Assembly: GCA_964016885.1 (NCBI GenBank)
Contig: OZ024745.1
Span: 38,254,001 to 38,318,000 of the forward strand
Reading direction: 5' to 3'
From: Eledone cirrhosa
Taxonomy: Eukaryota
Length of the DNA stretch: 64,000 bases
Shown here: positions 3,999 through 64,000 of the stretch, one piece after another
Numbering within the stretch: position 1 is the first letter of the stretch
Layout of the letters: the number at the start of each line of letters is the position of its first letter
The notes under the pieces: generated by a model
Seen by the model: only the letters and a program-made list of their open reading frames with translations
Told to the model about the DNA's origin: nothing
The model's database searches: none
Program-made: the position numbers and the translations under genes

Positions 3999-6900
3999 TT
4001 CTTTGAGTCTCAGTCATAGATGTTAGTTAACTGGAAAGTTTGTTGAAATGAATATCAAGCCACTACCTGCAGCCTCAGTTATTCAGGACGTATTGGAGGT
4101 TTCTTGCTGTTCCCAGCAAGCATGCCTTTTGAAGTGTTCCAAAAAGCGGCGTGGGGCCAATTTTCTTTAACCATCCGTGGAAACTCTTTGAGATAGTCCC
4201 TAGTGCGCCTATGACAATCAGGATCACTTTGTCTTCATGGCAGTTCCAAATCCTTTTTACCTCCCACTTTAAGTCCTGGTATCGGTTAATTTTCTCTCTC
4301 TCCTTCTCTTGCACTCTCGTTTCGAATGGGCAGGCCACATTCACAATCAGGCACGATCTTTTTTCTTTGTCCACAACCACCAGGTCAGGTCTATTGTGTT
4401 CCAGTTTCTTGTCCGTCTGTATCCTAAAATCCCACAGCACCTTCACCTGATCGTTTTCTATCACCGCCTCTGGCTTATGCTCATACCTCTTCTCAGAATG
4501 TGGTAAATTGTTTACTTTGCATAGGTGCCAGTGGATCACCCTGCCCATCACATCATGTCTCCAGCCCTTATAGTGAGTCTGGGCTAGGTGTTTACACTCG
4601 GATACAATGTGAGCCACAGTCTCCTCTCCCTCTCCACAGATCCTGAACAGTGGGCTAGCCTCCTTGTAAATATGGTGTTTCAACCACTTCGTTTTGAGGG
4701 CCTGCTCCTGCGCAGCCATTAACATTCCTTCTGTAGCCTTTTTAAGGTCTCCTCTTTTCAACCAGTTCCATGTCATTGGATCTCTAAGTTCAGTTTGCTC
4801 AAAGAAGGTACTATGAAGGGATTTTTCCTGAAGGCTGCTCTTTCTCCTTGATGTTATTTCCTCCTTGGACATACCCTAGCCTATTGTCCCCTCCTTTAGT
4901 ACAGTTCTGAGCATTGGCTCCTTACCATCAGTCACGTATTTGTGTAGGTTGTTTTTTTCCATCTGAACACAGTCCTCTATGCTGATAAGACCTCTTCCAC
5001 CCTCAGATCTCCTTAAGTAGAGTATATCGACATCACTCCTCTCGTAGAACATGTTGTATATAGTCAATAGCTTCCTAGTCTTCCTATGCATTTCTTTCTG
5101 TTCAGCAACATTCCATCTCAGAATTCCCGCACTGTACCTAATAATGGACACAGCTCGGGTATTTACTGCACTTATGGCATTCCTACTGTTCAGATGTAAC
5201 TTTAATACGCTCCTTACTCTCCGAACGTATTCAGTTCTTATCAATTCCTTCATTTTTTTGTTCTTGATGTCATCAGCCTCCAGAACGCCCAAATACTTGT
5301 ATCCTTCTTCAGAGTCAATTTCCATTATCATCTCACCCGTTGGTATCTGGATTCCGTTACTTCTGCTCAACTTACCCCTCTTCATCACAAGGACTCCACA
5401 CTTACTAATACCAAATTGCATACATATATCATTGGTGAAAATACGGACAGTGTCAACATGCACATCCGGCTCCTTCTCACTCTTCCCGTAGAGCTTAAGA
5501 TCGTCCATGAAGAGGAGGTGATTGATGGTAAGCCCTCCTCTTTCCCAACCTGTATCCTGCTCTCACTTTTCGTAGTACACTGGTCAGGGGCATCAGCGCA
5601 AGGACAAACAGCAGAGGGGACAGACTATCTCCCTGGAAGATACCTCTCTTGATCTTCACGCTTCCCAAGGATTCTCCAGTTGATGTTAACTCTGTTTCCC
5701 AGGACTGCATACTTTTGCCAAACAACTGTCTGATGTTATCTACCACCTTGAAGATCTCTAGGCGTTTGGTGATCCAAGAATGAGGCACCATGTCAAATGC
5801 CTTTTTGTAGTCTATCCATCCCATGGCAAGACCAGTGTGTCTCCTCTTGCAATTCCTCATTACCATCTTATGAATAAGTCTGGTCCTTTGTACCACGTGA
5901 CTTCTTTCGGCTTCCTTTCTGTTCGTCCGGTAACAAGTTGTTTCTGTGGAGGTGATGGTAGATTTCCTCAGACATAATGCTTGTCAACAGTTTCCACATT
6001 ACGGACAGACATGTGATAGGTCTATAGTTGGTAACATCATTACCCTTGATTCGGTCTTTCATTATCAGAACTGTGGTACCTTTTGTCAACCACTCTGGTA
6101 CCTCACCTGACATCAAGCAGTCATTGAACATGGTTGTCAGTTTCGGGTGGAGGGATGTTATATTTTTAATCCAATACCCCTGCACACCATCTGGGCCTGG
6201 TGATTTCCAGTTGGTTAGTTTTTTGGCCTGCCCCTTAAGAGTTTCAACTGTGATACTCAAATCAGATTGTTGGTGTGCCTGTTCAATAATCTCCTTCTGT
6301 ACTGTCTCAATCCACACTGCCTGGTCATTATGTTTAACATCCTGCTCCCATATTCCTCTCCAGAATGTTTTAGTTTGTTCCGCCTCATCGATGAAGTCGT
6401 TGCCTCTTTCTTTCCCTTCAAGCTGACCAAACAGCATCTTCTGGTTGTTGCCGAACATGCGGTTCTGTCTATATTGGCTGACTCCGTTCTTGTATCGCCT
6501 GATTTTTGCACTCTTTGCTACAATGCGTTGCTTCAGTTCCTCTATCATAATATTTAGCCTTTTCCTCCTAGTTTTGTACTTTATTTCCAGTCTATTTTTA
6601 GTGTCTATGTTTTTTAGTGTCCCATTCAGTAGGGACTCAAGCTTTCCAACGGCATTCCTCATTTCCCTGATTTGACCACTCATTCGTTTCTTCCACCAAG
6701 GCTCTGCACTTTCTTGTCTGTTGCTTCCTTTCGCTTTTATACCAAGTAGTTTCCTTACCATATTTGCTGTTGCTTTGAGGATATTGTTGCACTGGTGAAG
6801 GCTCCTCGCCTCAAGGTATGGGATGACTTCGTTTACCTTAGCTGTTGTTTCTTTTAACTTTTTCCTGTCTACAAATCTTAGGTTCATCGGTCTCCCACTA

Positions 6901-7507
6901 TCATTGTTCAATTCATCTACCACTAAGTTTAGGATATCAACTAAATATTGTCCAAGCCCGTCAGCATTCATCTCCTCAGTGGCCGTATCTCTGTTCCAGG
7001 TATTATTTATCTCAGCATTCAGATCATTGTCTACTTCGTGTGGTTACTCCGTTCTCTTGACCTCTTCACCTTCATTTCCCACTGGCTCATTTGCCTGGCA
7101 TACTCCACTCTCCATCTCCAAGCTTATCTCTCTGCTCAGTTCCTCCAGTTCCAGCTCGCTTATCCACCCATTAGTTCTTATTACTCGAGCCTGCCCGGCC
7201 AATTTTTGTTCATCTAATTTAAATAGAGCAATCTCGTTCCAGATGTTATACATCCGTTTCCTATTGCCTTTCTCCTTGGGGTTACTCTTCAGGTAACATT
7301 GCATAACCGTTCTATTAAATTCTTTCGTCCGGTTGGTTCTGGTCCCTTTTCTTCTTCTTCTTCCTCCGACACCAGCAGTATCTGGTTGACAGCCAGGTCC
7401 CTGCTGTTGAGCCAGGGAGCACCTGTTGGGTGAGAGTCTGTCACATGACATTCTACTCTCCATTTCACCTTTATTCGAACTGTTTAGGTTCGACATTTAA
7501 ACACTCT
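3999..7507 (-). mobile_element. Near full-length R4/Dong-clade non-LTR retrotransposon (RT + restriction-like endonuclease), frameshifted
   Basis: ORF pieces 7044-7496 (R4/Dong N-terminus VMQCY..RKRMYNIW..EQKLAGQARVI), 5868-6971 (WKSPGPDGVQGYW, NYRPITCL), 5495-5896 (WIDYKKAFD, GIFQGDSLSPLLF), 4876-5508 (FMDDLKL, YKYLG, GGRGL), 4075-4872 (decayed CCHC, RHD, RPDLVVVDK). Both ends abut (TTA)n. Confidence 0.93.
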
Positions 7508-7523
7508 TATTATTATTATTATT

Positions 7524-7710
7524 AAGGGCGGTGGATTGGCAGTATCGGTAGAGGGTCGGACGCCATGCTTTCCAGCATAGTTACGTCCCTTTACGATCTG
7601 AGTTCAAATCCCGCCGAGCTTGACTTTGCCTTTCATCCTTACGGGGTCGATAAAATAAAGTACCAGTAATGCACTGGATAATTGCTGGCCTTGTGCCAAA
7701 AGTAGAAACA
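7524..7710 (+). mobile_element. tRNA-derived SINE with (TTA)n tail
   Basis: A-box-like TGGCAGTATCGG, B-box GAGTTCAAATCC, central GCCTTTCATCCTTACGGGGTCGATAAAAT, ATT-repeat tail. More than ten related copies or fragments in the window. Confidence 0.85.
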
Positions 7711-7751
<41 letters not shown>

Positions 7752-7752
<1 letters not shown>

Positions 7753-8530
7753 GTTCTTTAAGTCTCAGTCATTGATGTTAGTTAACTGGAAAGTTTGTTG
7801 AAATGAATATCAAGCCACTACCTGCAGCCTCAGATATTCAGGACGTATCGGAGGATTCTTGCTGTTCCCAGCAAGCATGCCTTTTGAAGCGTTCCAAAAA
7901 AGCGTGGCGGGGCCAATTTTCTTTAACCATCCCTGGAAACATTTTGAGATAGTACCTAGTGCGCCTATGACAATCGGGACCACTTTGACTTCATGGCAGT
8001 TCCAAATCCTTTTTACCTCCCAATTTAAATCATGGTATCAGTTAATTTTCTCCCTCTCCTTCTCTTGCACTCTCGTTTCGAATGGGCAGGCCACATTCAC
8101 AATCAGGCACAATATGTTTTCCTTGTCCATAACCACCAGGTCAGGTCTATTTTGTTCCAGTTTCTTGTCCGTCTGTATCCTAAAATCCCACAGCACCTTC
8201 ATCTGATTGTTCTCCATCACCGCCTCTGGCTTATGCTCATACCACTTCTCAGAATGTGGTAAATTGTTTACTTTGCATAGGTGCCAGTGGATCACCCTGC
8301 CCATCACATCATGTCTCCAGCCCTTATAGTGAGTCTGGGTTAGGTGTTTACACTCGGATACAATGTGAGCCACAGTCTCCTCTCTCTCTCCACAGATCCT
8401 GCACAGTGGGCTAGCCTCCTCCTTGTAAATATGGTGTTTCAACCACTTCGTTTTGAGGGCCTGCTCTTGCGCAGCCATTATGATTCCTTCTGTAGCCTTT
8501 TTAAGGTCTCCTCTTTTCAACCAGTTCCAT
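7752..8530 (-). mobile_element. 5'-truncated copy of the R4/Dong element (RLE domain + 3' UTR)
   Basis: Highly similar to 3999-4772; CRIC..ETVAHIVSEC, RHD, RPDLVV; flanked by (TTA)n. Confidence 0.92.
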
Positions 8531-9096: not shown

Positions 9097-9162
<66 letters not shown>

Positions 9163-9293
9163 GTGAGGTTTTTTTTACAAAATGAAAAATAACCGAGATG
9201 TCCTACACGAGTGAAAGTATAAAGAAAAAGAGATGAAATCGAAAATGCAACTGAAGTCTTAATTAAAAAAAATTTATATATATTTATTTGGTT

Positions 9294-9331
9294 CCTTTAC
9301 CGGTTTCGCAGTTCTTCTGCTTTTCAAAAGG
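9294..9331 (-). ncRNA. Minimal type I hammerhead ribozyme, U3-A8 variant (left inverted pLTR)
   Basis: Reverse complement of 12610-12647. Confidence 0.75.
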
Positions 9332-9867
9332 TGAGTTGAGATGGAGGGTCTGTGGTTTTTCTCACATCTGGTTGGTCTCTGAATGTTACTTGTTTTATAT
9401 GGAAAAAGTGGCTCGAAATTCCAGGTTTTCGAGAAGTAATTTGATTGGTTTGTCAATAATTATAATAAATTTCGCGCCAGTTCGCGATACAATAGTTCTT
9501 CAAATAAGAGAGTGGGGGGTGGGGGGGGGGGGGGGGGGGTTGTCACAGGTTGTTTTTTCCATATATGAGTGTTTGAATTTCTTTTTACTTGAAAAAAGGA
9601 GGCTCACGAAGGCTTTTTTGGGGTTGGTTATAAATGAAATTTGGCTGTCACGTGAACAAGTTTTTATTACATTTTTGCGCCCTTATTTGGAAAACTATTC
9701 TGTAGTCTTTATAGTGAATGTTATGACAATGGAGAGATAGTGGTCAAGAGAAAAGGGATTGGGAGAAATGTTCTGGTTCAGTGAATATGGCCAGCTCGCC
9801 GGGGTGTCAGAGTTCAGATTTTCTATTGAGACTGAAGATATGTATGTTTATTTGTGTGCTTGTGTGT

Positions 9868-9910
<43 letters not shown>

Positions 9911-10354
9911 TATAGGAAGATGATTCTATTAGTAGAGATGGGGGAGGGAGTTGTGTGTGTGTGTATATGGGTGTTATGTGTGTGTGTGCGAGTATGTTAA
10001 GATGGAGAGAATATATATTTTGTGTGTGTGTATATATATATATATGTGTGTAGGAAAGTGGTTCTATTAGTAGAAATGGGGAGGGAGTTGTAGGTGTGGG
10101 GGTTATTATGTGTGTGTATGGGTGTTATGTGTGTGGGAGTATGGTTAGCATGTTAAGATGAAGAGAATATATATATATATATATATTGTGTGTGTGTGTA
10201 TGTGTGTGTGTAGGAAAGTGATTCCTTTAGTAGGAATATTTTTGAATGAACACATTTTCCTTACTTTTTCGTGTTTGCTGTTGTATTGCCAGTGCAAACG
10301 TATGTTAAGGTTTATTTAGTTCGGGTTTTTATTTTCTAAAGTAGAAGGTGTTAT

Positions 10355-11568
10355 ACTTACAAGCAAATATCGGGGACTGCGATGGGCACAAAAGCCGCTC
10401 CAACTTATGCCAACTTAGTCATGGCATACTTAGAAGTCCAGATATATGAACAGTCCAAATCAAAATACGGATTGAACTTCCACAAATATTTATCAGAGAA
10501 TTGGAAACGCTACTTGGACGATTGCCTCATTCTTTGGTCCCACACACTCGACCAACTGAAGGATTTCAAAAACTTAATAAACGGCATCAATAACCACATC
10601 CAATTCACAATGGAATACAGCCAAGATCAACTCCCATTTCTGGACATCTTAATCACAAAAAAATACACAAATATCGAAACTGACATACACTACAAACCAA
10701 CAGATTCCAAACAATATCTGCTATTCACCTCCAACCATCCAAAGCACACGAAGACGAACATTCCTTTTAACCTAGCAAGAAGAATTTGCACAATTGTCTC
10801 CAATTATGAAACGCGAAATGAAAGACTTCAAGAATTAAAGGAAATTCTACTTGAGAGAGAGTACCCACTATTACTAATAAATAATGGAATAGAAAGGGCT
10901 AAAGCAATAGGCATTGATGAATTACGGAAACAGAAACAAATTCAAGGTACGTCCAATATTCTATCATATATCTCAACACACAACCCAAGAAATGCGGAAG
11001 CTTACAACACTATTCACAATAACATCCCACTACTAAAACAAAACCCAAGAATGAAAAAAGCCCTTGAAACACACAAAATAATCAAAAGCAAAAGACAACC
11101 AAAATCACTGAAAACATTACTCACCAATGCCAAATTACCTACCACAAACCCACAACCAAGTAACACAAAATGTGGTCGCTCTAATTGTGGAACCTGCACT
11201 CACCTCATTGAAGGCAACACGTATACATTTAAATCAGGACAACATTTTACTGTAAAAAATCACTTCACTTGCTCATCAAAAAAAATCTAATTTATGCCAT
11301 TAAATGTAAAGGATGCAATGAAGATTATATAGGACAAACTAAACTCACACTCAGAAACAGAATGACAGTTCATCGCCAACAATTACGAGATCCAACCACG
11401 AGACAGATACCACTAAGTGCATATCTAGACATTTGCGCAAGTAATAAGACACCCAAATTCCAAGTCTTCCCATTTTACCTTTGCGCTAACAATACAACAG
11501 AACAAATGCGAATAAATAAGGAAAATATGTTTATTCAAAAATATAGACCAACATTAAATAAGGTTTAA
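10355..11568 (+). pseudogene. PLE polyprotein C-terminal part: RT, Cys-rich linker, GIY-YIG endonuclease
   Basis: GTAMGTKAAPTYANL, WKRYLDD, FLDI, HYKPTDSKQYL..SNHP, CGRSNCGTC, NLIYAIKCKGCNEDYIGQT..LRNRMTVH. One frameshift in the A-run near 11278-11285. Confidence 0.92.
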
Positions 11569-12053
11569 TATACATTATGTCAACACCACAATATGACATA
11601 CACACACACACATAACACCTTCTACTTTAGAAAATAAAAACCCGAACTAAATAAACCTTAACATACGTTTGCACTGGCAATACAACAGCAAACACGAAAA
11701 AGTAAGGAAAATATGTTCATTCAAAAATATTCCTACTAAAGGAATCACTTTCCTACACACACACATACACACACACACAATATATATATATATATATATA
11801 TATTCTCTTCATCTTAACATGCTATCCATACTCCCACACACATAACACCCATACACACACATAACAACCCCCACACCTACAACTCCCTCCCCATTTCTAC
11901 TAATAGAACCACTTTCCTACAAACATATATATATACATACACACAAAATATATATTCTCTCCATCTTAACATACTCGCACACACACATAACACCCATATA
12001 CACACACACACAACTCCCTCCCCCATCTCTACTAATAGAATCATCTTCCTATA

Positions 12054-12092
<39 letters not shown>

Positions 12093-12609
12093 ACACACAA
12101 GCACACAAATAAAGATACATATCTTCAGTCTCAATAGAAAATCTGAAATCTGACACCCCGGCGAGCTGGCCATATTCACTGAACCAGAACATTTCTCCCA
12201 ATCCCTTTTCTCTTGACCACTATCTCTCCATTGTCATAACATTCACTATAAAGACTACAGAATAGTTTTCCAAATAAGGGCGCAAAAATGTAATAAAAAC
12301 TTGTTCACGTGACAGCCAAATTTCATTTATAACCAACCCCAAAAAAGCCTTCGTGAGCCTCCTTTTTTCAAGTAAAAAGAAACTCAAACACTCATATATG
12401 GAAAAAACAACCTGTGACAACCCCCCCCTCTCTTATTTGAAGAACTATTGTATCGCGAACTGGCGCGAAATTTATTATAATTATTGACAAACCAATCAAA
12501 TTACTTCTCGAAAAACCTGGAATTTCGAGCCACTTTTTCCATATAAAACAAGTAACATTCAGAGACCAACCAGATGTGAGAAAAACCACAGACCCTCCAT
12601 CTCAACTCA

Positions 12610-12647
12610 CCTTTTGAAAAGCAGAAGAACTGCGAAACCGGTAAAGG
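12610..12647 (+). ncRNA. Minimal type I hammerhead ribozyme, U3-A8 variant
   Basis: CCTT-TTGAAAA-GCAG(AAGAA)CTGC-GAAA-CCGG-TA/AAGG: stem I, variant core, stem II, palindromic stem III, GUA cleavage triplet; AATAAA just downstream. Confidence 0.78.
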
Positions 12648-12716
12648 AACCAAATAAATATATGTATATTTTTTTTAAATAAGACTTCAGTTGCATTTTC
12701 GATTTCATCTCTTTTT

Positions 12717-13388
<672 letters not shown>

Positions 13389-13394
13389 TATACA

Positions 13395-15679: not shown

Positions 15680-18600
15680 GATGATTTCTTTATTGATCAG
15701 AAATGGGTCATTCCTGGAAAAAGCTCATAAAACCACGAATGTTCTGATCTTTTGGGCAAGTGCCCTGTCCCAGTTATACACCTCCATTCTTCAGGCTTAC
15801 ACTCAGAGCATGCCCATTCACTCGGGCCATGCTCGCTTCTCTCATCCACTTTTCAACAAATTGCTTTGAAGGCAGCACTTCTCTCCCTACCTCTATTTTC
15901 CTCATCAAGTGGAATCTGAAAAAGTTGATCGGGGTTTCACCGAAAAGGAAAGTGCTCGTCTTCAAATCTTTCAAGCGTGTCAGCATACTACATGACATGA
16001 AATCGGCCTGCCCTTCTTGATTAAAAGAAGGCGGTGGGAAAATCTTCACAATCAACACGTTTGATAACCGAATTTGTCCTACACGTGACAGCAGGTATTC
16101 GACATAAAAATACGAGTCAGCAATGGTCAGACACCGGACGGTTTCATCGTCCTGCGCGCATCTCGAACAGGTTCGGCTGACGGCACTTCCATGTCCTTAG
16201 ATGTTATCTCGAACTGGCAAAGCTCCTCGGTAGCAATACCATGCGAGTGATTTCTGGAAAGCCCATCCGAAAAGAGTTGATTTTCGTCGATGTCTGGGGT
16301 TGGCCTAAGAACCCCGTCGCTTTTATCTGCCACTAACCCACTATAGAACATTAAGGTGGTGTTTCCACCGCGCTTCTATTTACCGATTGTTGAATGGCTG
16401 TAAACGCTTGGAGACTTACCAGAGTCCAAGCGCCCTCCGACGCTCTCCGCTTGACCCAGGACTGTAGCTCTGTTAAGATTACGAGCTGAGGCAACATGCA
16501 TCTGGTGTACGGTGACCACACCTATTCAACGTTTAGGAAGATATAGAGATGTCGTAGCCTCAGTGCATGCATGTGCATCATTAATCACCGCATTCCCCGT
16601 CCTCCACGCAGGGTCTGATGACAGCAGATAGACCGCCTCTCCACCGCTATTGTGCAGTCAGAAGGGGTTCGGGACAACGTACTGCTATCAAGTGGAAGTA
16701 AATGATGAATGGGATGATTGTGTTCGTCACCTCTGCCCTATCCTTGAGGAACAACTTTCTCCCGGCCCATTTCTGGGTAAGTTTGGCCACTTTGTTAGTC
16801 ATCTGATCCCAATTTCGGTCCATCTGGAGGTCAGAACCAAACCAGAACCCGAGTAATTTAACAGGACCGTCAGTCTAGCACCTGACGACACTGTTAGACA
16901 GCATAGACATGCCCCTCCATGTGCCGATTTGTAGGCCCACGGATTTTTCCTGGTTGATTTTCGCTCCTGTCAGCGCTTCGTATTCCTTCACTACAGTGCC
17001 GATCACCCTAATGTGTTTGGTGTTCGACACTACGACTGTGATGTCCTCGGAGTAGGCCGACACAGCTCTTCCATGTTCACGCGGGATGCCCCTCAACGTC
17101 TCTAATCAGTGTAGTAGTGGCACGAGAGTCAATACATACAAGGACGAGAGGGGATAGCCCTGGCGGACCGAACGCATTTATGTTGAACGGTTCCGAGAGG
17201 TGACCACAGAGCAGATGTTACTATGCATAGCAGCTATACATTCTCTGAAAACCGGCCGAAAGCTTTGATGACTGCTACCAGGTACAGATAGTCGACTCTA
17301 TCAAATGCTTTTGATTGATCCAAGTTAATCAGTGCCCTACCCGTGCCAGGTTCTTTAGTCATCTTCTCAATTATGTGCCGCATGTGATGGAGGTTGTCGT
17401 GGATAGATCTCTTGGGAATAGCACATGTCTGTGCTTCCCCGACCAGACCACCAACGACCAACCTCGTTGCTAAAACATTGACCAACATTTTGAACTCTGT
17501 ATTTAATAGATTTATGGGCCTAAAATTAATTATATTGTCTCCCTTGTTCAGGTCTTTTTTCAGCAGTTCCACCACTTCGCGGCTCTTAGAACTGGGGATT
17601 CTCCCATTCTGCTGCCAGTTGCTGTAGACATGTGTCAAGAGGTCACAAAACAAATCTGACATATAAACATAAAGCTCGTAGGGCACACCATGCAATCCAG
17701 TCGATTTGCCCCTCGTGCATTCAGCTAATGCATTCTGTATCTCAACGGCTGTTATTGGCTTTTCGCAACATTCCGCCTCTGTCACTGACATCTGCTGCAG
17801 GCCGTGGAGATAGGTTGTGAAGTCCATCTCGCAAATCGGACCGCCAACGCTACCGAAAAGTCGGGAAAAGTGTTTCTGAAAAGTCGCACACATCTGCTTG
17901 GGATCGAGTATCATGTGTCGGTCGTAGTGTTCCAGAAATCGAATTGTGGCTTTGTTGCCACGTGGCGCCTCTGCCACACGTGTCTATTGAACGGCTTTCG
18001 TCTCCTCACAACTGAGAGCACGCGTCTTATATCTGACATCGTAGCCTTCGTGTTTAGCATTGAAGAATTGGTTTAGAGCCAATATCGTCTCACGAACGTC
18101 AGTTGCGATTACTTTGTTCATTGCCTTTTCTCGTTTTCTCACCAGTCGCCTCTCTACTCAAGGTTTCTCTATTGTTACAGCTTTGCTCAATCTTATTGAT
18201 TCTACTTTAATTCCCCTTTTCAGGGCATACCACTACTTGTTGATGATGATTGGCCCTGTGAACGCCTGCTTAGCTAATTCACTAATCCGATCTATGTAGG
18301 CTTTTCGCATTGGGAATGAGGCGATTAGCTTCTAGTAACCGGGTACTTGCCTATGGAACTTATCTAGATCTACTAGGCATTTCACAAATTTGTGGTCTGT
18401 GTATTCATCTGTTCGAAAGTGTGGAAAATGTATGTTATTCCTGTCTACTTCCCCACTGAATACCCTATAGAGATACGATCTGGATTACGTGATGCGCCCT
18501 GGGAAAATCCAGTCGGTATCTGCCAGACATTTGGAAGTGTCTGAGCAGATTTGCGAGGCTTTTACATTCTCGTCTCCTATTCGTTAGACCCACACGATCC

Positions 18601-20149: not shown

Positions 20150-20351
20150 CTCAGATGCGAGAAAAACCACAAACTCTCCATCTCAATTTTACTTTTGAAA
20201 AGCAGAAGAACTGCGAAACCGGTAAAGGAACCAAATAAATATTCTTAAAAAGACTCCAGTTGCATTTTCGTTTTCATCATTTTTCCTTATACTTTCACTC
20301 GTGTAGGACGTCTCGTTTGTTTTTCATTTTGTAAAAAACCTCATTTTCTAA
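20150..20351 (+). mobile_element. Solo PLE 3' end with intact U3-A8 hammerhead core (20191-20228)
   Basis: Matches the reverse complement of 9156-9370; ends in (TA)n. Confidence 0.8.
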
Positions 20352-20366
20352 TATATATATATATAT

Positions 20367-28655: not shown

Positions 28656-28860
28656 TGATGTGACAAAAACCACAGACCCTCCATCTCAACTCTACTTTTG
28701 AAAATCAGAAGAACAGCGAAACCGGTAAAGGAACCAAATAAATATATATATATATTAAAAAATAAGACTCCAGTTGCATTTTCGATTTCATCTTTTTTCT
28801 TTATACTTTCACTCGTGTAGGACACCTCGATTATTTTTCATTTTGTAAAAATAACCTCAC

Positions 28861-28867
<7 letters not shown>
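28656..28867 (+). mobile_element. Solo PLE 3' end (U3-A8 hammerhead with mutated stem II)
   Basis: Matches the family consensus; between long (TA)n tracts. Confidence 0.8.
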
Positions 28868-28948
<81 letters not shown>

Positions 28949-29718: not shown

Positions 29719-29807
<89 letters not shown>

Positions 29808-29810
<3 letters not shown>

Positions 29811-29990
29811 AAAATTATTATTTTTTTAAATGAGAAAAACGAGATGTCTTACACGAGTGAAAGTATGAAGGAAAATGATGAAATCGAAAATGCAACTGGA
29901 GTTTATATTTATTTGTCTCCTTGAGCGGTTTCACAGTCCTTATGCTTTTCAAAAGTAGAATTGTGATGGAGTGTTTGCGGTTTTTCCCGT
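29808..29990 (-). mobile_element. Diverged solo PLE 3' end (U3-A8 family)
   Basis: Degenerate match to 9156-9365. Confidence 0.72.
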
Positions 29991-30472: not shown

Positions 30473-30521
30473 AAATAAAGTTAAATAAAAGTCAAATGAT
30501 TAAAATTTAGCTTCGTTTATT

Positions 30522-30576
30522 ACTGCTATATATATTTCAGTGACAGCCATCTTTGGCTGTGACCTCTTCAGGCAGT
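30522..30576 (-). ncRNA. Minimal type I hammerhead ribozyme in element 30470-30686
   Basis: ACTGC-CTGAAGA-GGTCACAGCCA(AAGA)TGGCTGTCACT-GAAA-TATATA-TA/GCAGT-AATAAA. Confidence 0.78.
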
Positions 30577-33486: not shown

Positions 33487-34778
33487 CAGGGCGGGGCATA
33501 CAAACTAAAAGGGAAATAGGTTGAAAAAAACATTTATTTCAAGACCTGACTTCAACAAATAGTAAGCAATATAGTATTTAACAACTGCACAAAAATGTTT
33601 TGGAAATGCTTTCCTCTAGCTCTCACTAGTGCTCGAAGTCTTCTAGGAAAGTCTTCGATGGATGCACGAACAGTTTCCATGGGTATTTTCTCCCATACAC
33701 TTTTCAGTTTTGATTTTAGAATTTCAATATTTTGGCTAGGAGTAGAAGAGGCTTCACTCTCAAGAATTGACCCTAAAGAAAAATTGAGAGAGTTGAGAGC
33801 TGGTGATGTGGGAGGCCACTCTCCCTTACTGATCCATGCAGGACAATGGTCTCTACACCACTGTTGTGTTATGTGAGCAGTGTGGCTCATCGCTCCATCT
33901 TGTTGGAGAGTCCAAATGTCGACGCCATAAACAGATGTGCACCGTGGCATCAGTGCTCCTTCCAAAATATCCTTTATGTAAAGTTCTTTGTTAATTTTAA
34001 CTCGTTGAGGCACACACATCAGAGGAGACTTCCCTCTTTCAGAAATGGCTGCACAAACCATCACTGATGGTGGTTTCTGTGTTCTCAACACTTTTCCTAC
34101 ACTTGAAGGAATTGATTTGAGACTTTTTGCAAGTACTCGATCATTTTGATGATTGTGAGACTGCTGCACAGTGAATAACTTCTCACTTGTAAAAATGATG
34201 TTTTGCAGCGTGCCATCCTTGATACGGTTCAATAACAGTTTACTTCTGGAGAGCCTCTTTTCAATTGTATCTGCAGAAAGAAGCTGCCTCTTTTGGAACT
34301 TATAGGGTGACATCCCCAGATCATCTCGACTTATCCTCCACATAGTTCTCGGTGATGTTTCTGCTTCTTCTGCCATTTTTCTCATTGACCTTCTTGGATT
34401 ACGCCTTATATTTTCCCTCACACTTCTAACGAGTTTTAGTGTTCTTGAGGTAGGAGGGCGTCCGGATTGAGGTCTATCTTTGAACGAGGAAGTTTCCTTA
34501 AATCGATAGATTGTCCTTTTCATCAACATTCTATTGATCTCAAGAGTTTTCCCCAGTTTAAATATCTCTGGTGGAGTGAGGCCTTTTTCATGCTTCTCTA
34601 TTATGAACTTTCTTTTCAATTATATGGACATTGCAAATTGTTAATGGAGTAATGTTCTGAAAAATAGTTAATATGGTTACAGTGCATGGATTTGATACAC
34701 ATATATTAGTTATATTATCTACATAATGTATTTTTAAATTGATTGAAAACTTTGTAACTGGAATTATGCCCTACGCTG
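33487..34778 (-). mobile_element. Tc1/mariner DD37D (maT-family) transposon, inactive
   Basis: Degenerate TIRs CAGGGCGGGGCATA / CAGCGTAGGGCATA with TA flanks; contains the transposase frame. Confidence 0.88.
33552..34631 (-). pseudogene. DD37D transposase pseudogene
   Basis: HTH with SGRP, FTSEKLF (first Asp lost), QQDGA, WPPTSPALNSLN (third Asp replaced by Asn, 37 residues after the second Asp). The ATG at 34631 is followed by TAA at codon 4. Confidence 0.88.
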
Positions 34779-45769: not shown

Positions 45770-47025
<1,256 letters not shown>

Positions 47026-47029
47026 ATAT

Positions 47030-47241
47030 ATATAGTTCCTACTCGTTCCTATTATACATATAATAGGAACGAGTAGGAACCCGACGGCTGAGCTCAAGCC
47101 ATTTCGACGGCTAATTCTGGACGAAACGGCTTGAGCTTAGCCGTCGGGGTCCTACTCGTTCCTATTACCCACTCTACTACCCTAAGTATTGAGTACGTTG
47201 GTACGTTATGCTCCACCTGGTTCCATACCACATTTCCTCCG

Positions 47242-47243
<2 letters not shown>
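47030..47243 (+). mobile_element. Second hairpin-headed element with hammerhead 3' half
   Basis: Matches 13003-13195 but with a different fold-back junction. Confidence 0.7.
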
Positions 47244-47306
<63 letters not shown>

Positions 47307-47313
<7 letters not shown>

Positions 47314-47494
47314 GTGATTTTTTTTTACAAAATGAAAAATAATCGACTTATCCTACACGAGTGAAAGTATAAAGAAAAAAATATGTAATCAAAAATGCAA
47401 CTGGGGTCTTATTTAAAAAAAAATATATATATTTATTTGGATTCGCAGTTCTTCTGCTTTTCAAAAGTAGAGTTGAGATGGAGGGTCTGTGGTT
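47307..47494 (-). mobile_element. Solo PLE 3' end (U3-A8 family, stem III deleted)
   Basis: Matches 9156-9358; (TA)n flanks. Confidence 0.78.
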
Positions 47495-47509
47495 TATATA
47501 TATAAATAA

Positions 47510-62640: not shown

Positions 62641-64000
62641 CAAACCGGCGGACAAGGGAGGCGCCGTAGTGGTATGGCGCGCGGACCTCTACATGGCCTA
62701 AGCCCTCAGGCAGCTCCGTAACCCCCTCTTTTACCGCCCTCTACCCCCCGATCCCACCCCCGTCTACCAACAACAAGTCTCCTCCACCATCAAAGACCTT
62801 ATCGCCTCCTCCCTCCTCCCCCCCCCCCCCCCACCGCTTCCCACCTCATCGTCCGCACCCCCCGACACCACACCATCTACTTCCTCCCCAAACTCCACAA
62901 ACCCGACAACCCCGGCCGCCCCATCGTCTCCGCTTGCAACTGCCCCACCGAACTCATCTCCGCCTTTCTCGACTCCCTCCTCGGCCCCCTTGTCACCACC
63001 CTCCCCTCCCTAATCTCCGACACCAACCACGCCCTGCGCCTTTTCAACTCCTTCACCTACCTACCCGGCCCACAGGCCTTCCTCTTCACCCTAGACATCA
63101 AGTCCCTCTATACAGTCATCCCCCACGCCGACGGCCTTCGCGCCCTCAAACACTACCTCGACCTTCGCCCCTCCCCCATTCCCTCCACCCCACCCTCCTT
63201 CGCCTGGCCGAGCTGGTCCTCACCCTAAATTGTTTCTCCTTCTCGGGTGAGTTTTAACAACAGGTCACGGGGGTAGCCATGGGCACAAGAATGGGCCCGA
63301 ACTATGCCAACCTTTTTGTTGGCCATGTTGAGGCCCAAATATTTGCCCAGTACACCGGCCCCACACCCGAACTGTACGGTCGTTACATTGATAACTGTAT
63401 CGGAGCCACGACCCTCACCCGAGAACAGCTCGACTCCTTTCTCTCCTTCTTCTGCTCCTTCCACCCCTCCCTCCACTTCACCACCTCTATCTCCACCATC
63501 CACGTCCACTTCTTAGACATCTCCGTCGCCTTCGACCCCTCCCACCACTCCCTCGTCACCTCCGCCTTCTTCAAACCCACCGACTCCCACTCTTACCTCG
63601 ACTTCACCTCTTCCCACCCCACCCACACAAAACACTCCATTCCCTACTCCCAACTTCTCAGGATCCGCCGCCTCTGTAGCCGTGATGCTGACTTCGAGTC
63701 CCAGGCCCTTTCCCTAGTCAGCCATTTCATCCGCAGAGGTTACCCCCCCTCTCTCGTCTACACCGCTCTCACCCGCGCCCGTGCTGTCCCTCGCTCCACC
63801 ACCCTCACCCCACGCCACCACACACCCACCCACCGTCTCCCCTTCCCCATCACCTACCACCCCTCCACCTTACCCCTCCACCTTACCCCTCCACCGCACC
63901 ATCCGCCTTCTCTTCCGACGCCTCCAGTCCGACCCCTCCACCTCCCACATCTTCCCCCCCTTCAAACGCGCACGCAATCTCTGCACCCTCCTCGTCCACA
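62641..64000 (+). mobile_element. 5'-truncated C-rich Penelope-like element RT (inactive), continuing beyond the window
   Basis: KPADKGGAVVVW, YFLPKLHKPDNPGRPIVS, TLDIKSLYT, GVAMGTRMGPNYANLF, RYIDN (catalytic Asp replaced by Asn), FLDI, FKPTDSHSYL..SSHP, RRGYP; has stops and frameshifts; begins directly after (TA)n. Confidence 0.92.

What the first reader, a model, noticed from the sequence alone, without database searches (positions are those of the whole stretch)
12610..12647. Multicopy non-canonical hammerhead with U3-A8 core (UUGAAAA) tied to a Penelope element
Seen: a 38-nt fold CCUU UUGAAAA GCAG-AAGAA-CUGC GAAA CCGG UA/AAGG in the 3' pLTR of the PLE. Six family copies occur in the window, three with an intact core and stem II. 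Established: C3-G8 is a tertiary Watson-Crick pair that tolerates a U3-A8 swap, and palindromic minimal stem III motifs work as dimers. Inference: a functional, probably dimer-dependent ribozyme that standard CUGANGA searches miss. Solo ~200 bp copies begin about 30-40 nt upstream of it.
Basis: partly seen in the sequence, partly recalled or inferred. Interest (0 to 1): 0.75.

Follow-up and report, generated by a model that had tools for sequence, protein, structure and literature searches.

The report
Weak U3-A8 hammerhead of Penelope retrotransposon
This is a known kind of tiny hammerhead RNA motif near the start of an animal jumping gene with over 11,000 copies; its unusual U-A core pair is already in print, and the ends of the copies suggest it likely cuts only a small share of the element's RNAs.

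Summary
The 38-nt fold is real. It is a minimal type I hammerhead with U3-A8 in the pseudo-LTR of a young Neptune-type Penelope-like element (11,286 exact-flank matches). U3-A8 in such ribozymes is published (PMC4209133), and this scan noted it on other DNA (37 notes). The motif is under selection: a sister family with saturated silent sites keeps 12 of 13 core bases, a compensated stem II and the palindrome; an outgroup family has C3-G8 at the same place. Solo copies start at a likely TATA-linked transcription start 72 nt upstream of the cut site (51 of 100; 3 of 100 at the cut), so most templates were uncut. A small excess of 5' junctions sits at the cut site (about 120, against about 22 and 35 in control windows), which fits rare cleavage. 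Against strong catalysis: U3 can pair with A17, the sister family reached 10,597 matches with A13C, and one other run shows C3 with A8. Cleavage and dimer dependence are untested. New member of a known kind.

The parts
12610..12647 (+). Minimal type I hammerhead motif: stem I 12610-12613/12644-12647, core U3-A9 12614-12620 (U3=12614, A8=12619), stem II 12621-12633, G12-A15.1 12634-12637, palindrome A15.1-U16.1 12637-12642, A17 12643; predicted cut 12643/12644
   Evidence: sequence
12492..12496 (+). CCAAT box of the likely upstream promoter
   Evidence: CCAAT motifs also upstream in sister families; function inferred
12542..12548 (+). TATA-box-like TATAAAA, 30 nt upstream of the 5'-end peak
   Evidence: similar motif and spacing in families B and C; function inferred
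12572..12573 (+). Likely transcription start; 5' end of most solo and fold-back copies
   Evidence: 51 of 100 copies end within -3..+9 of it
12644..12722 (+). pLTR 3' of the cut site up to the first 3' end (about +78), a likely internal RT start; the second end (tail) lies at about +140 and is absent from this arm
   Evidence: analogy to PMC11167929
12721..12832 (.). (TA)n tract, likely target site
   Evidence: Neptune-type bias noted in PMC8557442
10340..11568 (+). 5'-truncated RT-thumb-GIY-YIG reading frame of the element, split by a frameshift in an A run near 11285
   Evidence: 97-98% identical 775-aa intact frames elsewhere
9097..10354 (-). Inverted 5' arm (copy of 11612-12832) with an intact second motif at 9294-9331 and the tail
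20152..20366 (+). Solo pLTR copy, older subfamily, intact core, 3-bp stem I
28657..28927 (+). Solo copy with (TA)n tract, stem II broken
29747..29986 (-). Solo copy, diverged, palindrome broken
47247..47495 (-). Solo copy, deletion across the cut site

Best explanation
The motif is a minimal type I hammerhead with a U3-A8 core in the 5' leader of a young Neptune-type Penelope-like retrotransposon, and it is likely a slow ribozyme that would cut only a small share of the element's RNAs, likely when two motifs pair through their ACCGGU palindromes or the element's protein helps folding. Transcription likely starts 72 nt upstream of the cut site from a promoter lying in the preceding tandem unit. 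The RT likely starts internally at about +78 or +140 on (TA)n targets and copies through the uncut motif: to the RNA's 5' end (solo 150-210 bp copies, no promoter) or, from the second pLTR of a tandem transcript, into the reading frames. Cleavage is likely not needed for insertion; about 1 copy in 100 would come from a cut 3' fragment. Shown: sequence, copy numbers, end positions, cross-family conservation. Inferred: start site, RT start, cleavage, dimer, protein help.
For: All standard core positions present with U3-A8. Family B (RT-EN 429/766 aa identical, four-fold sites 44/132) keeps 12 of 13 core bases, G-C to U-A compensation in stem II and ACCGGU; block identity 26/31 against 39/84 downstream (Fisher p 0.0003) and 53/92 in the promoter (p 0.009). 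Family C (274/548 aa) has C3-G8, different stems and a different palindrome at the same distance from the start. The young subfamily gained a fourth stem I pair. 5' ends: 51 of 100 at the start site, 3 of 100 at the cut. Genome-wide junction pattern at -2..0: 141 matches, about 86 of the 100 listed true junctions by eye, 44 starting exactly at the cut; controls about 22 of 78 (-9..-7) and about 35 of 49 (+4..+6, stricter anchor). Low in vitro activity of metazoan min-HHRs (PMC4209133); protein-assisted cleavage not needed for insertion in an anole PLE (PMC11167929). ACCGGU self-duplex -8.3 kcal/mol.
Against: No cleavage assay and no RNA reads. U3-A17 pairing is in the predicted minimum-energy fold (-6.4 against -4.7 kcal/mol) and resembles the inhibitory C3-G17 pair (PMC3884650 passages); stem I probability is 0.03-0.27 in the six contexts reaching +60 or further. 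Block identity does not differ significantly from the adjacent leader (26/31 against 29/43, p 0.18). Family B carries C13 in 97 of the first 100 of 10,597 matches yet also shows an excess at its cut site (about 37 of 83 against about 19 of 23), so the peak may be partly non-catalytic (microhomology, or RT stalling at the palindrome helix). Run X12 (organism H) has C at position 3 in 21,300 of 21,569 depth with A8 unchanged (one run, contigs only).
Confidence: 0.62

Rival explanations
1. The motif descends from a hammerhead but no longer cuts; it is kept as an RNA pairing or protein-binding signal (palindrome plus stem II) needed for the element's RNP, and the small peak of ends at the cut site comes from RT stalling at the dimer helix or from TA microhomology.
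For: Family B keeps the whole block but fixed A13C and has only three A-U pairs in stem I; X12 shows C3 with A8; U3-A17 trap predicted; family B also has a two-fold excess at its cut site; single C3 or G8 changes cost over 100-fold and A13 changes 10-100-fold (PMC4075628, citing earlier work).
Against: Unpaired catalytic bases U4, G5, A6, A9, G12, A14 are kept in families A, B and C although silent sites are saturated; the excess is larger in A (about 120 against 22) than in B (about 37 against 19); 44 of 100 listed ends start exactly at the first base after A17.
Confidence: 0.22
2. [quoted passage not shown]
For: Two same-sense motifs 3.9-4.7 kb apart in 4 of 20 long loci; model proposed in PMC4209133.
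Against: 51 of 100 copies end at the likely transcription start, which a cut or circular template lacks; only 3 of 100 at the cut; lineages with damaged cores amplified; unprocessed RNA was the dominant substrate in vitro (PMC11167929).
Confidence: 0.08
3. The motif is a neutral relic carried along because it sits in the always-copied 5' leader.
For: No subfamily-level power inside family A; leader sequence is also fairly conserved (29/43).
Against: 26 of 31 identity with a compensatory pair where four-fold sites are 33% identical (binomial p about 2e-9 as computed for 26/30).
Confidence: 0.06

Closest known systems
U3-A8 minimal hammerheads of Schistosoma mansoni Cercyon PLEs (Cervera and de la Pena 2014, PMC4209133; abstract, results, discussion and part of methods read)
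   Same: Minimal type I architecture in the pLTR, U3-A8 covariation, palindromic stem III, G10.1-C11.1, mostly single dispersed copies, some inverted pairs on opposite strands.
   Different: Here stem II is 4 bp with no extra base after A9 (the paper describes 7-8 bp and an unpaired base for its most frequent family); copies are far more uniform and numerous (13,791 intact-core matches, against about 1,300); A17 can pair with U3.
PAc Poseidon element of Anolis carolinensis (Frangieh et al. 2024, PMC11167929; main text read)
   Same: Two internal 3' ends defining a tail, AT-rich targets, hammerhead upstream of the RT start sites, uncut RNA as main template.
   Different: PAc has C3-G8 and its motif overlaps the start codon; here the cut site is about 170 nt upstream of the ORF1 start codon, the tail is about 62 nt, and a small genomic excess of ends at the cut is seen, whereas they found no RNA reads ending there.
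Neptune/Nematis-type C-terminal-endonuclease PLEs (Craig et al. 2021, PMC8557442; passages read)
   Same: RT followed by CX2-5CxxC linker and GIY-YIG, (TA)n targets, partial tandems, inverted 5' copy, tail, ORF1 separated by a frameshift.
   Different: Clade placement rests on the linker and architecture; no named reference elements were in my tree.
Natural U3-A8 hammerheads (Perreault et al. 2011, PMC3088659; section 8 read)
   Same: C3-G8 covaries to U3-A8 in nature; such ribozymes reported active in vitro.
   Different: Those are not described there as PLE motifs; activity of this minimal A17 variant is untested.

Membership tests
Minimal type I hammerhead (min-HHR) of metazoan PLEs | Core N3 U4 G5 A6 N7 N8 A9 ... 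G12 A13 A14 A15.1 ... U16.1 H17 with Watson-Crick 3-8 pair | tested here: met
   U3-A8, all other positions canonical; 13,791 intact-core matches
Minimal type I hammerhead (min-HHR) of metazoan PLEs | Stems I and II, supported by covariation | tested here: met
   stem II compensated in family B; all stems replaced in family C; stem I 3 bp to 4 bp between subfamilies
Minimal type I hammerhead (min-HHR) of metazoan PLEs | Short palindromic stem III | tested here: met
   ACCGGU in A and B, AGUACU in C; self-duplex -8.3 kcal/mol
Minimal type I hammerhead (min-HHR) of metazoan PLEs | Located in the pLTRs flanking the reading frames | tested here: met
   motif before ORF1 in 4 of 20 long loci and after ORF2 in 19 of 20
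Minimal type I hammerhead (min-HHR) of metazoan PLEs | Self-cleavage after H17, as a dimer | not testable with these tools
   indirect only: excess of 5' junctions at the cut, partly mirrored in the A13C family
Rfam hammerhead families | Score against an Rfam hammerhead model | tested here: not met
   no hammerhead match at E up to 10; a canonical-core minimal motif near 30575 is missed too, so the minimal architecture, not only U3-A8, explains it
Neptune-type EN+ Penelope-like element | RT followed by C-terminal GIY-YIG endonuclease | tested here: met
   Pfam RVT_1 (just under cut-off) and GIY-YIG (above cut-off) in the 775-aa frame
Neptune-type EN+ Penelope-like element | CX2-5CxxC linker before the endonuclease | tested here: met
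   three-cysteine linker in the translation; motif definition from PMC8557442
Neptune-type EN+ Penelope-like element | Partial tandems, inverted 5' copies, tail, (TA)n targets | tested here: met
Neptune-type EN+ Penelope-like element | Phylogenetic placement among named Neptune elements | not tested
   tree (quick method) held unnamed homologues only
Non-LTR retrozyme (considered for the solo copies) | Head-to-tail tandem units of a few hundred bases, each with a hammerhead | tested here: not met
   solo copies are single or head-to-head and collinear with the autonomous element's leader

The most novel reading that the evidence does not exclude
One genome holds a natural allelic series of a homologous PLE hammerhead (C3-G8; U3-A8 with an auto-inhibitory U3-A17 pair; U3-A8 plus A13C; C3 with A8 in another organism), and inserted copies record both the transcription start and real in vivo cleavage. 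PLE hammerheads would then be tuned toward weak cutting, as a brake on solo-leader copying or as a dimer signal, and genomic junction counts could be used to read ribozyme activity in living animals.
Probability: 0.3. Interest if true: 0.62.

Novelty: new member of a known kind. Interest (0 to 1): 0.36.

Why it matters
The motif type is published, so the finding itself is ordinary. What it adds bears on an open question named in PMC8557442 and PMC11167929: what PLE hammerheads are for. Three large related families in one genome differ at catalytic positions, and their copy ends can be counted. That makes 'does cleavage matter for transposition' testable with four short transcripts and a full-genome junction count. 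I found no paper on genomic 5' ends at PLE cut sites or on a U3-A17 trap (searches; Lunse et al. 2017 and supplements not seen).

Tried and rejected
Rfam scans: microsatellite-driven miRNA hits over the window (best 150 of 280 seen), no hammerhead locally. The repeat finder was swamped by microsatellites. An HDV-like ribozyme starting at 12573 was considered by eye for the 5'-end peak and rejected: no room for P2/P3 and no GG junction (features recalled); the TATA spacing explains the peak. The UUUUGAAAA self-hairpin is negligible in folds. A long downstream anti-ribozyme hairpin appears in some contexts but z-scores are unremarkable (-1.8 to +1.3). A C3-G8 subfamily of family A: 0 of 49 C3 matches have G8, 6 unrelated singletons; the 49 fit post-insertion mutation. 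Core-versus-flank test within family A (221 copies): too few subfamily changes to decide. No RNA holder listed. Lunse 2017, Nelson and Uhlenbeck 2008 and Przybilski and Hammann 2007 are not held; a C3U/G8A paper search found 0. bioRxiv 2026.07.22.740005: only part 1 of 5 read. The careful tree did not finish; the quick tree is used. Look-ups by place and sequence in earlier scan notes were empty.

Full report
Observation. The 38-mer is at 12610-12647 as described. In hammerhead numbering U3 is 12614, A8 is 12619, and the predicted cut is between 12643 and 12644. BLAST of the flanking 321 nt finds six family copies in the window; three keep core, stem II and palindrome. Two of the three are the arms of one insertion: 11612-12832 is repeated inverted at 10354-9097, so they lie on opposite strands and cannot sit in one transcript. 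A strict descriptor hits these two places and 0 in 150 simulated windows. Rfam gives no hammerhead match but also misses a canonical-core minimal motif near 30575.

The element. The frames at 10340-11568 are a 5'-truncated RT and a GIY-YIG endonuclease. The genome (G000, 3.0 Gb) holds 11,286 matches with both exact flanks, 13,791 with an intact core and many 775-aa frames 97-98% identical. In 20 long loci the unit is 4.7 kb: motif, about 170 nt, ORF1 (400 aa), ORF2 in the -1 frame, 3' region, motif. Four of 20 hold two same-sense motifs 3.9-4.7 kb apart. A three-cysteine linker, (TA)n targets, inverted 5' copies and a tail fit Neptune-type elements (PMC8557442, passages). 3' ends fall at about +78 and +140 from the cut, like the two internal RT starts of the anole element (PMC11167929, main text).

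Where copies begin. I took the first 100 of 14,773 matches to an anchor 37 nt downstream of the cut and extended each upstream. Fifty-one end within -3..+9 of A12572, 28 further upstream, 9 between, 3 within 2 nt of the cut, 9 after it; inverted arms of one insertion count separately. TATAAAA lies 30 nt and CCAAT 80 nt upstream of A12572. Two related families show the same layout and peak: family C 42 of 78 at the start and 2 at the cut (one palindromic insertion), family B 8 of 31 and 0. So the solo copies are likely the 5' leader copied to the RNA's start, without the promoter, and their templates were uncut.

A small signal at the cut. Earlier scan notes reported copies starting at predicted cut sites in other families, so I tested it here with patterns that exclude the normal upstream letters. 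Ends at -2..0 gave 141 matches; by eye about 86 of the 100 listed are true junctions and 44 start exactly at the first base after A17. The window -9..-7 gave 78 matches, about 22 junctions; +4..+6 gave 49, about 35 junctions, with a stricter anchor. That is roughly 1 copy in 100 and about 3-6 times the controls. Microhomology with (TA)n and stalling at a palindrome helix are not excluded: family B gave about 37 junctions of 83 at its cut against about 19 of 23, in an A-rich context that favours fold-backs.

Selection. Within family A (140 young, 81 older copies) the whole leader is nearly invariant among masters, so core versus flank cannot be decided; stem I gained a fourth pair in the young subfamily. 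Between families the test works. Family B (429/766 aa, four-fold sites 44/132 identical) keeps U3-A8, 12 of 13 core bases, a G-C to U-A change in stem II and ACCGGU; the block is 26/31 identical against 39/84 downstream, 53/92 in the promoter and 29/43 in the leader (p 0.0003, 0.009, 0.18). Family C (274/548 aa) has C3-G8, other stems and another palindrome at the same distance from the start. A quick tree of 43 proteins (3 from this genome and the first 40 of 120 listed homologues) puts A and B in one clade and C outside. The other minimal hammerhead families seen in the fetched loci have C3-G8. U3-A8 is therefore likely an old, shared, compensated change.

Against strong catalysis. (a) U3 can pair with A17 and extend stem I; this is the predicted minimum-energy fold of the 38-mer. 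The analogy to the C3-G17 trap (PMC3884650, passages) is my inference; a search for U3-A17 found 0 papers. (b) Family B has C13 in 97 of the first 100 of 10,597 matches. (c) Run X12 (organism H) reads C at 12614 in 21,300 of 21,569 depth, with no change listed at 12619: a C3/A8 mismatch in a high-copy relative; one run, contigs only. PMC4075628 (part 1 of 2 read) cites over 100-fold loss for single C3 or G8 changes and 10-100-fold for A13. In G000, C3 with A8 occurs 49 times and C3-G8 0 times in this family. No RNA run was listed.

Mechanism. Most likely: a weak, probably dimer- or protein-assisted ribozyme, kept by selection over long times but dispensable for single rounds of insertion (0.62). 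Rivals: non-catalytic pairing or binding signal (0.22), efficient obligatory processing to circles (0.08), neutral relic (0.06).

Known or new. PMC4209133 (parts 1-2 of 4 read) reports U3-A8 minimal hammerheads in Cercyon pLTRs, about 1,300 hits, and low activity of dimers of a S. mansoni min-HHR. PMC3088659 (section 8) reports natural U3-A8 covariation. PMC6765202 (passages) summarises dimer cleavage; Lunse et al. 2017 was not held and may list further U3-A8 cases, as may supplements I did not open. This scan holds 37 notes with these words in at least 14 genomes (unchecked). Verdict: new member of a known kind; interest 0.36, for the allelic series and the countable ends more than for the motif.

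Noticed in passing
L092:3413-3419; L329:3476; L328:5734; L334:5196; L335:8000: ORF1 and ORF2 overlap in the -1 frame with a U-UUU-UUA slippery heptamer kept in families A, B and C; likely programmed frameshift. A frameshifted ORF1 is noted for PLEs in PMC8557442 Fig. 1 legend. No strong downstream hairpin predicted (-9.4 against -7.6 +/- 2.2).
   Followed up: partly
window about 30520-30575 (-): Minimal hammerhead of another family with canonical C3-G8 core, long stem II and an AU palindrome; copies in L106, L164, L180, L192.
   Followed up: partly
L052:1966 and 2433; L096:8206 and 8671; L161 (-) 3259 and 2571: Head-to-tail repeats of about 465 bp (and a 690-bp pair) each with a C3-G8 minimal hammerhead; retrozyme-like.
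   Followed up: no
L148:7790-7975 (-) and 10,597 pattern matches: Sister PLE family B amplified with A13C in its hammerhead core and a three-pair A-U stem I.
   Followed up: yes
window 12810-13392: Fold-back element next to the PLE: about 195-bp inverted arms around a 116-bp hairpin (13002-13117), related to 47053-47276.
   Followed up: no
window 45940-46971: 516-bp inverted repeat, 99% complementary, no spacer.
   Followed up: no
window 4075-8529 (-), 17234-17983 (-), 33552-34619 (-), 62917-63788 (+): Broken RT frames with zf-RVT (LINE-like), another RT fragment, a Tc1/mariner-like transposase fragment, and a distant PLE remnant (31-37% identical).
   Followed up: no
P0012, P0038, P0042, P0058: Close homologues (45-50%) are labelled as proteins of bacterial gill symbionts; likely host retrotransposon DNA in metagenome bins.
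   Followed up: no
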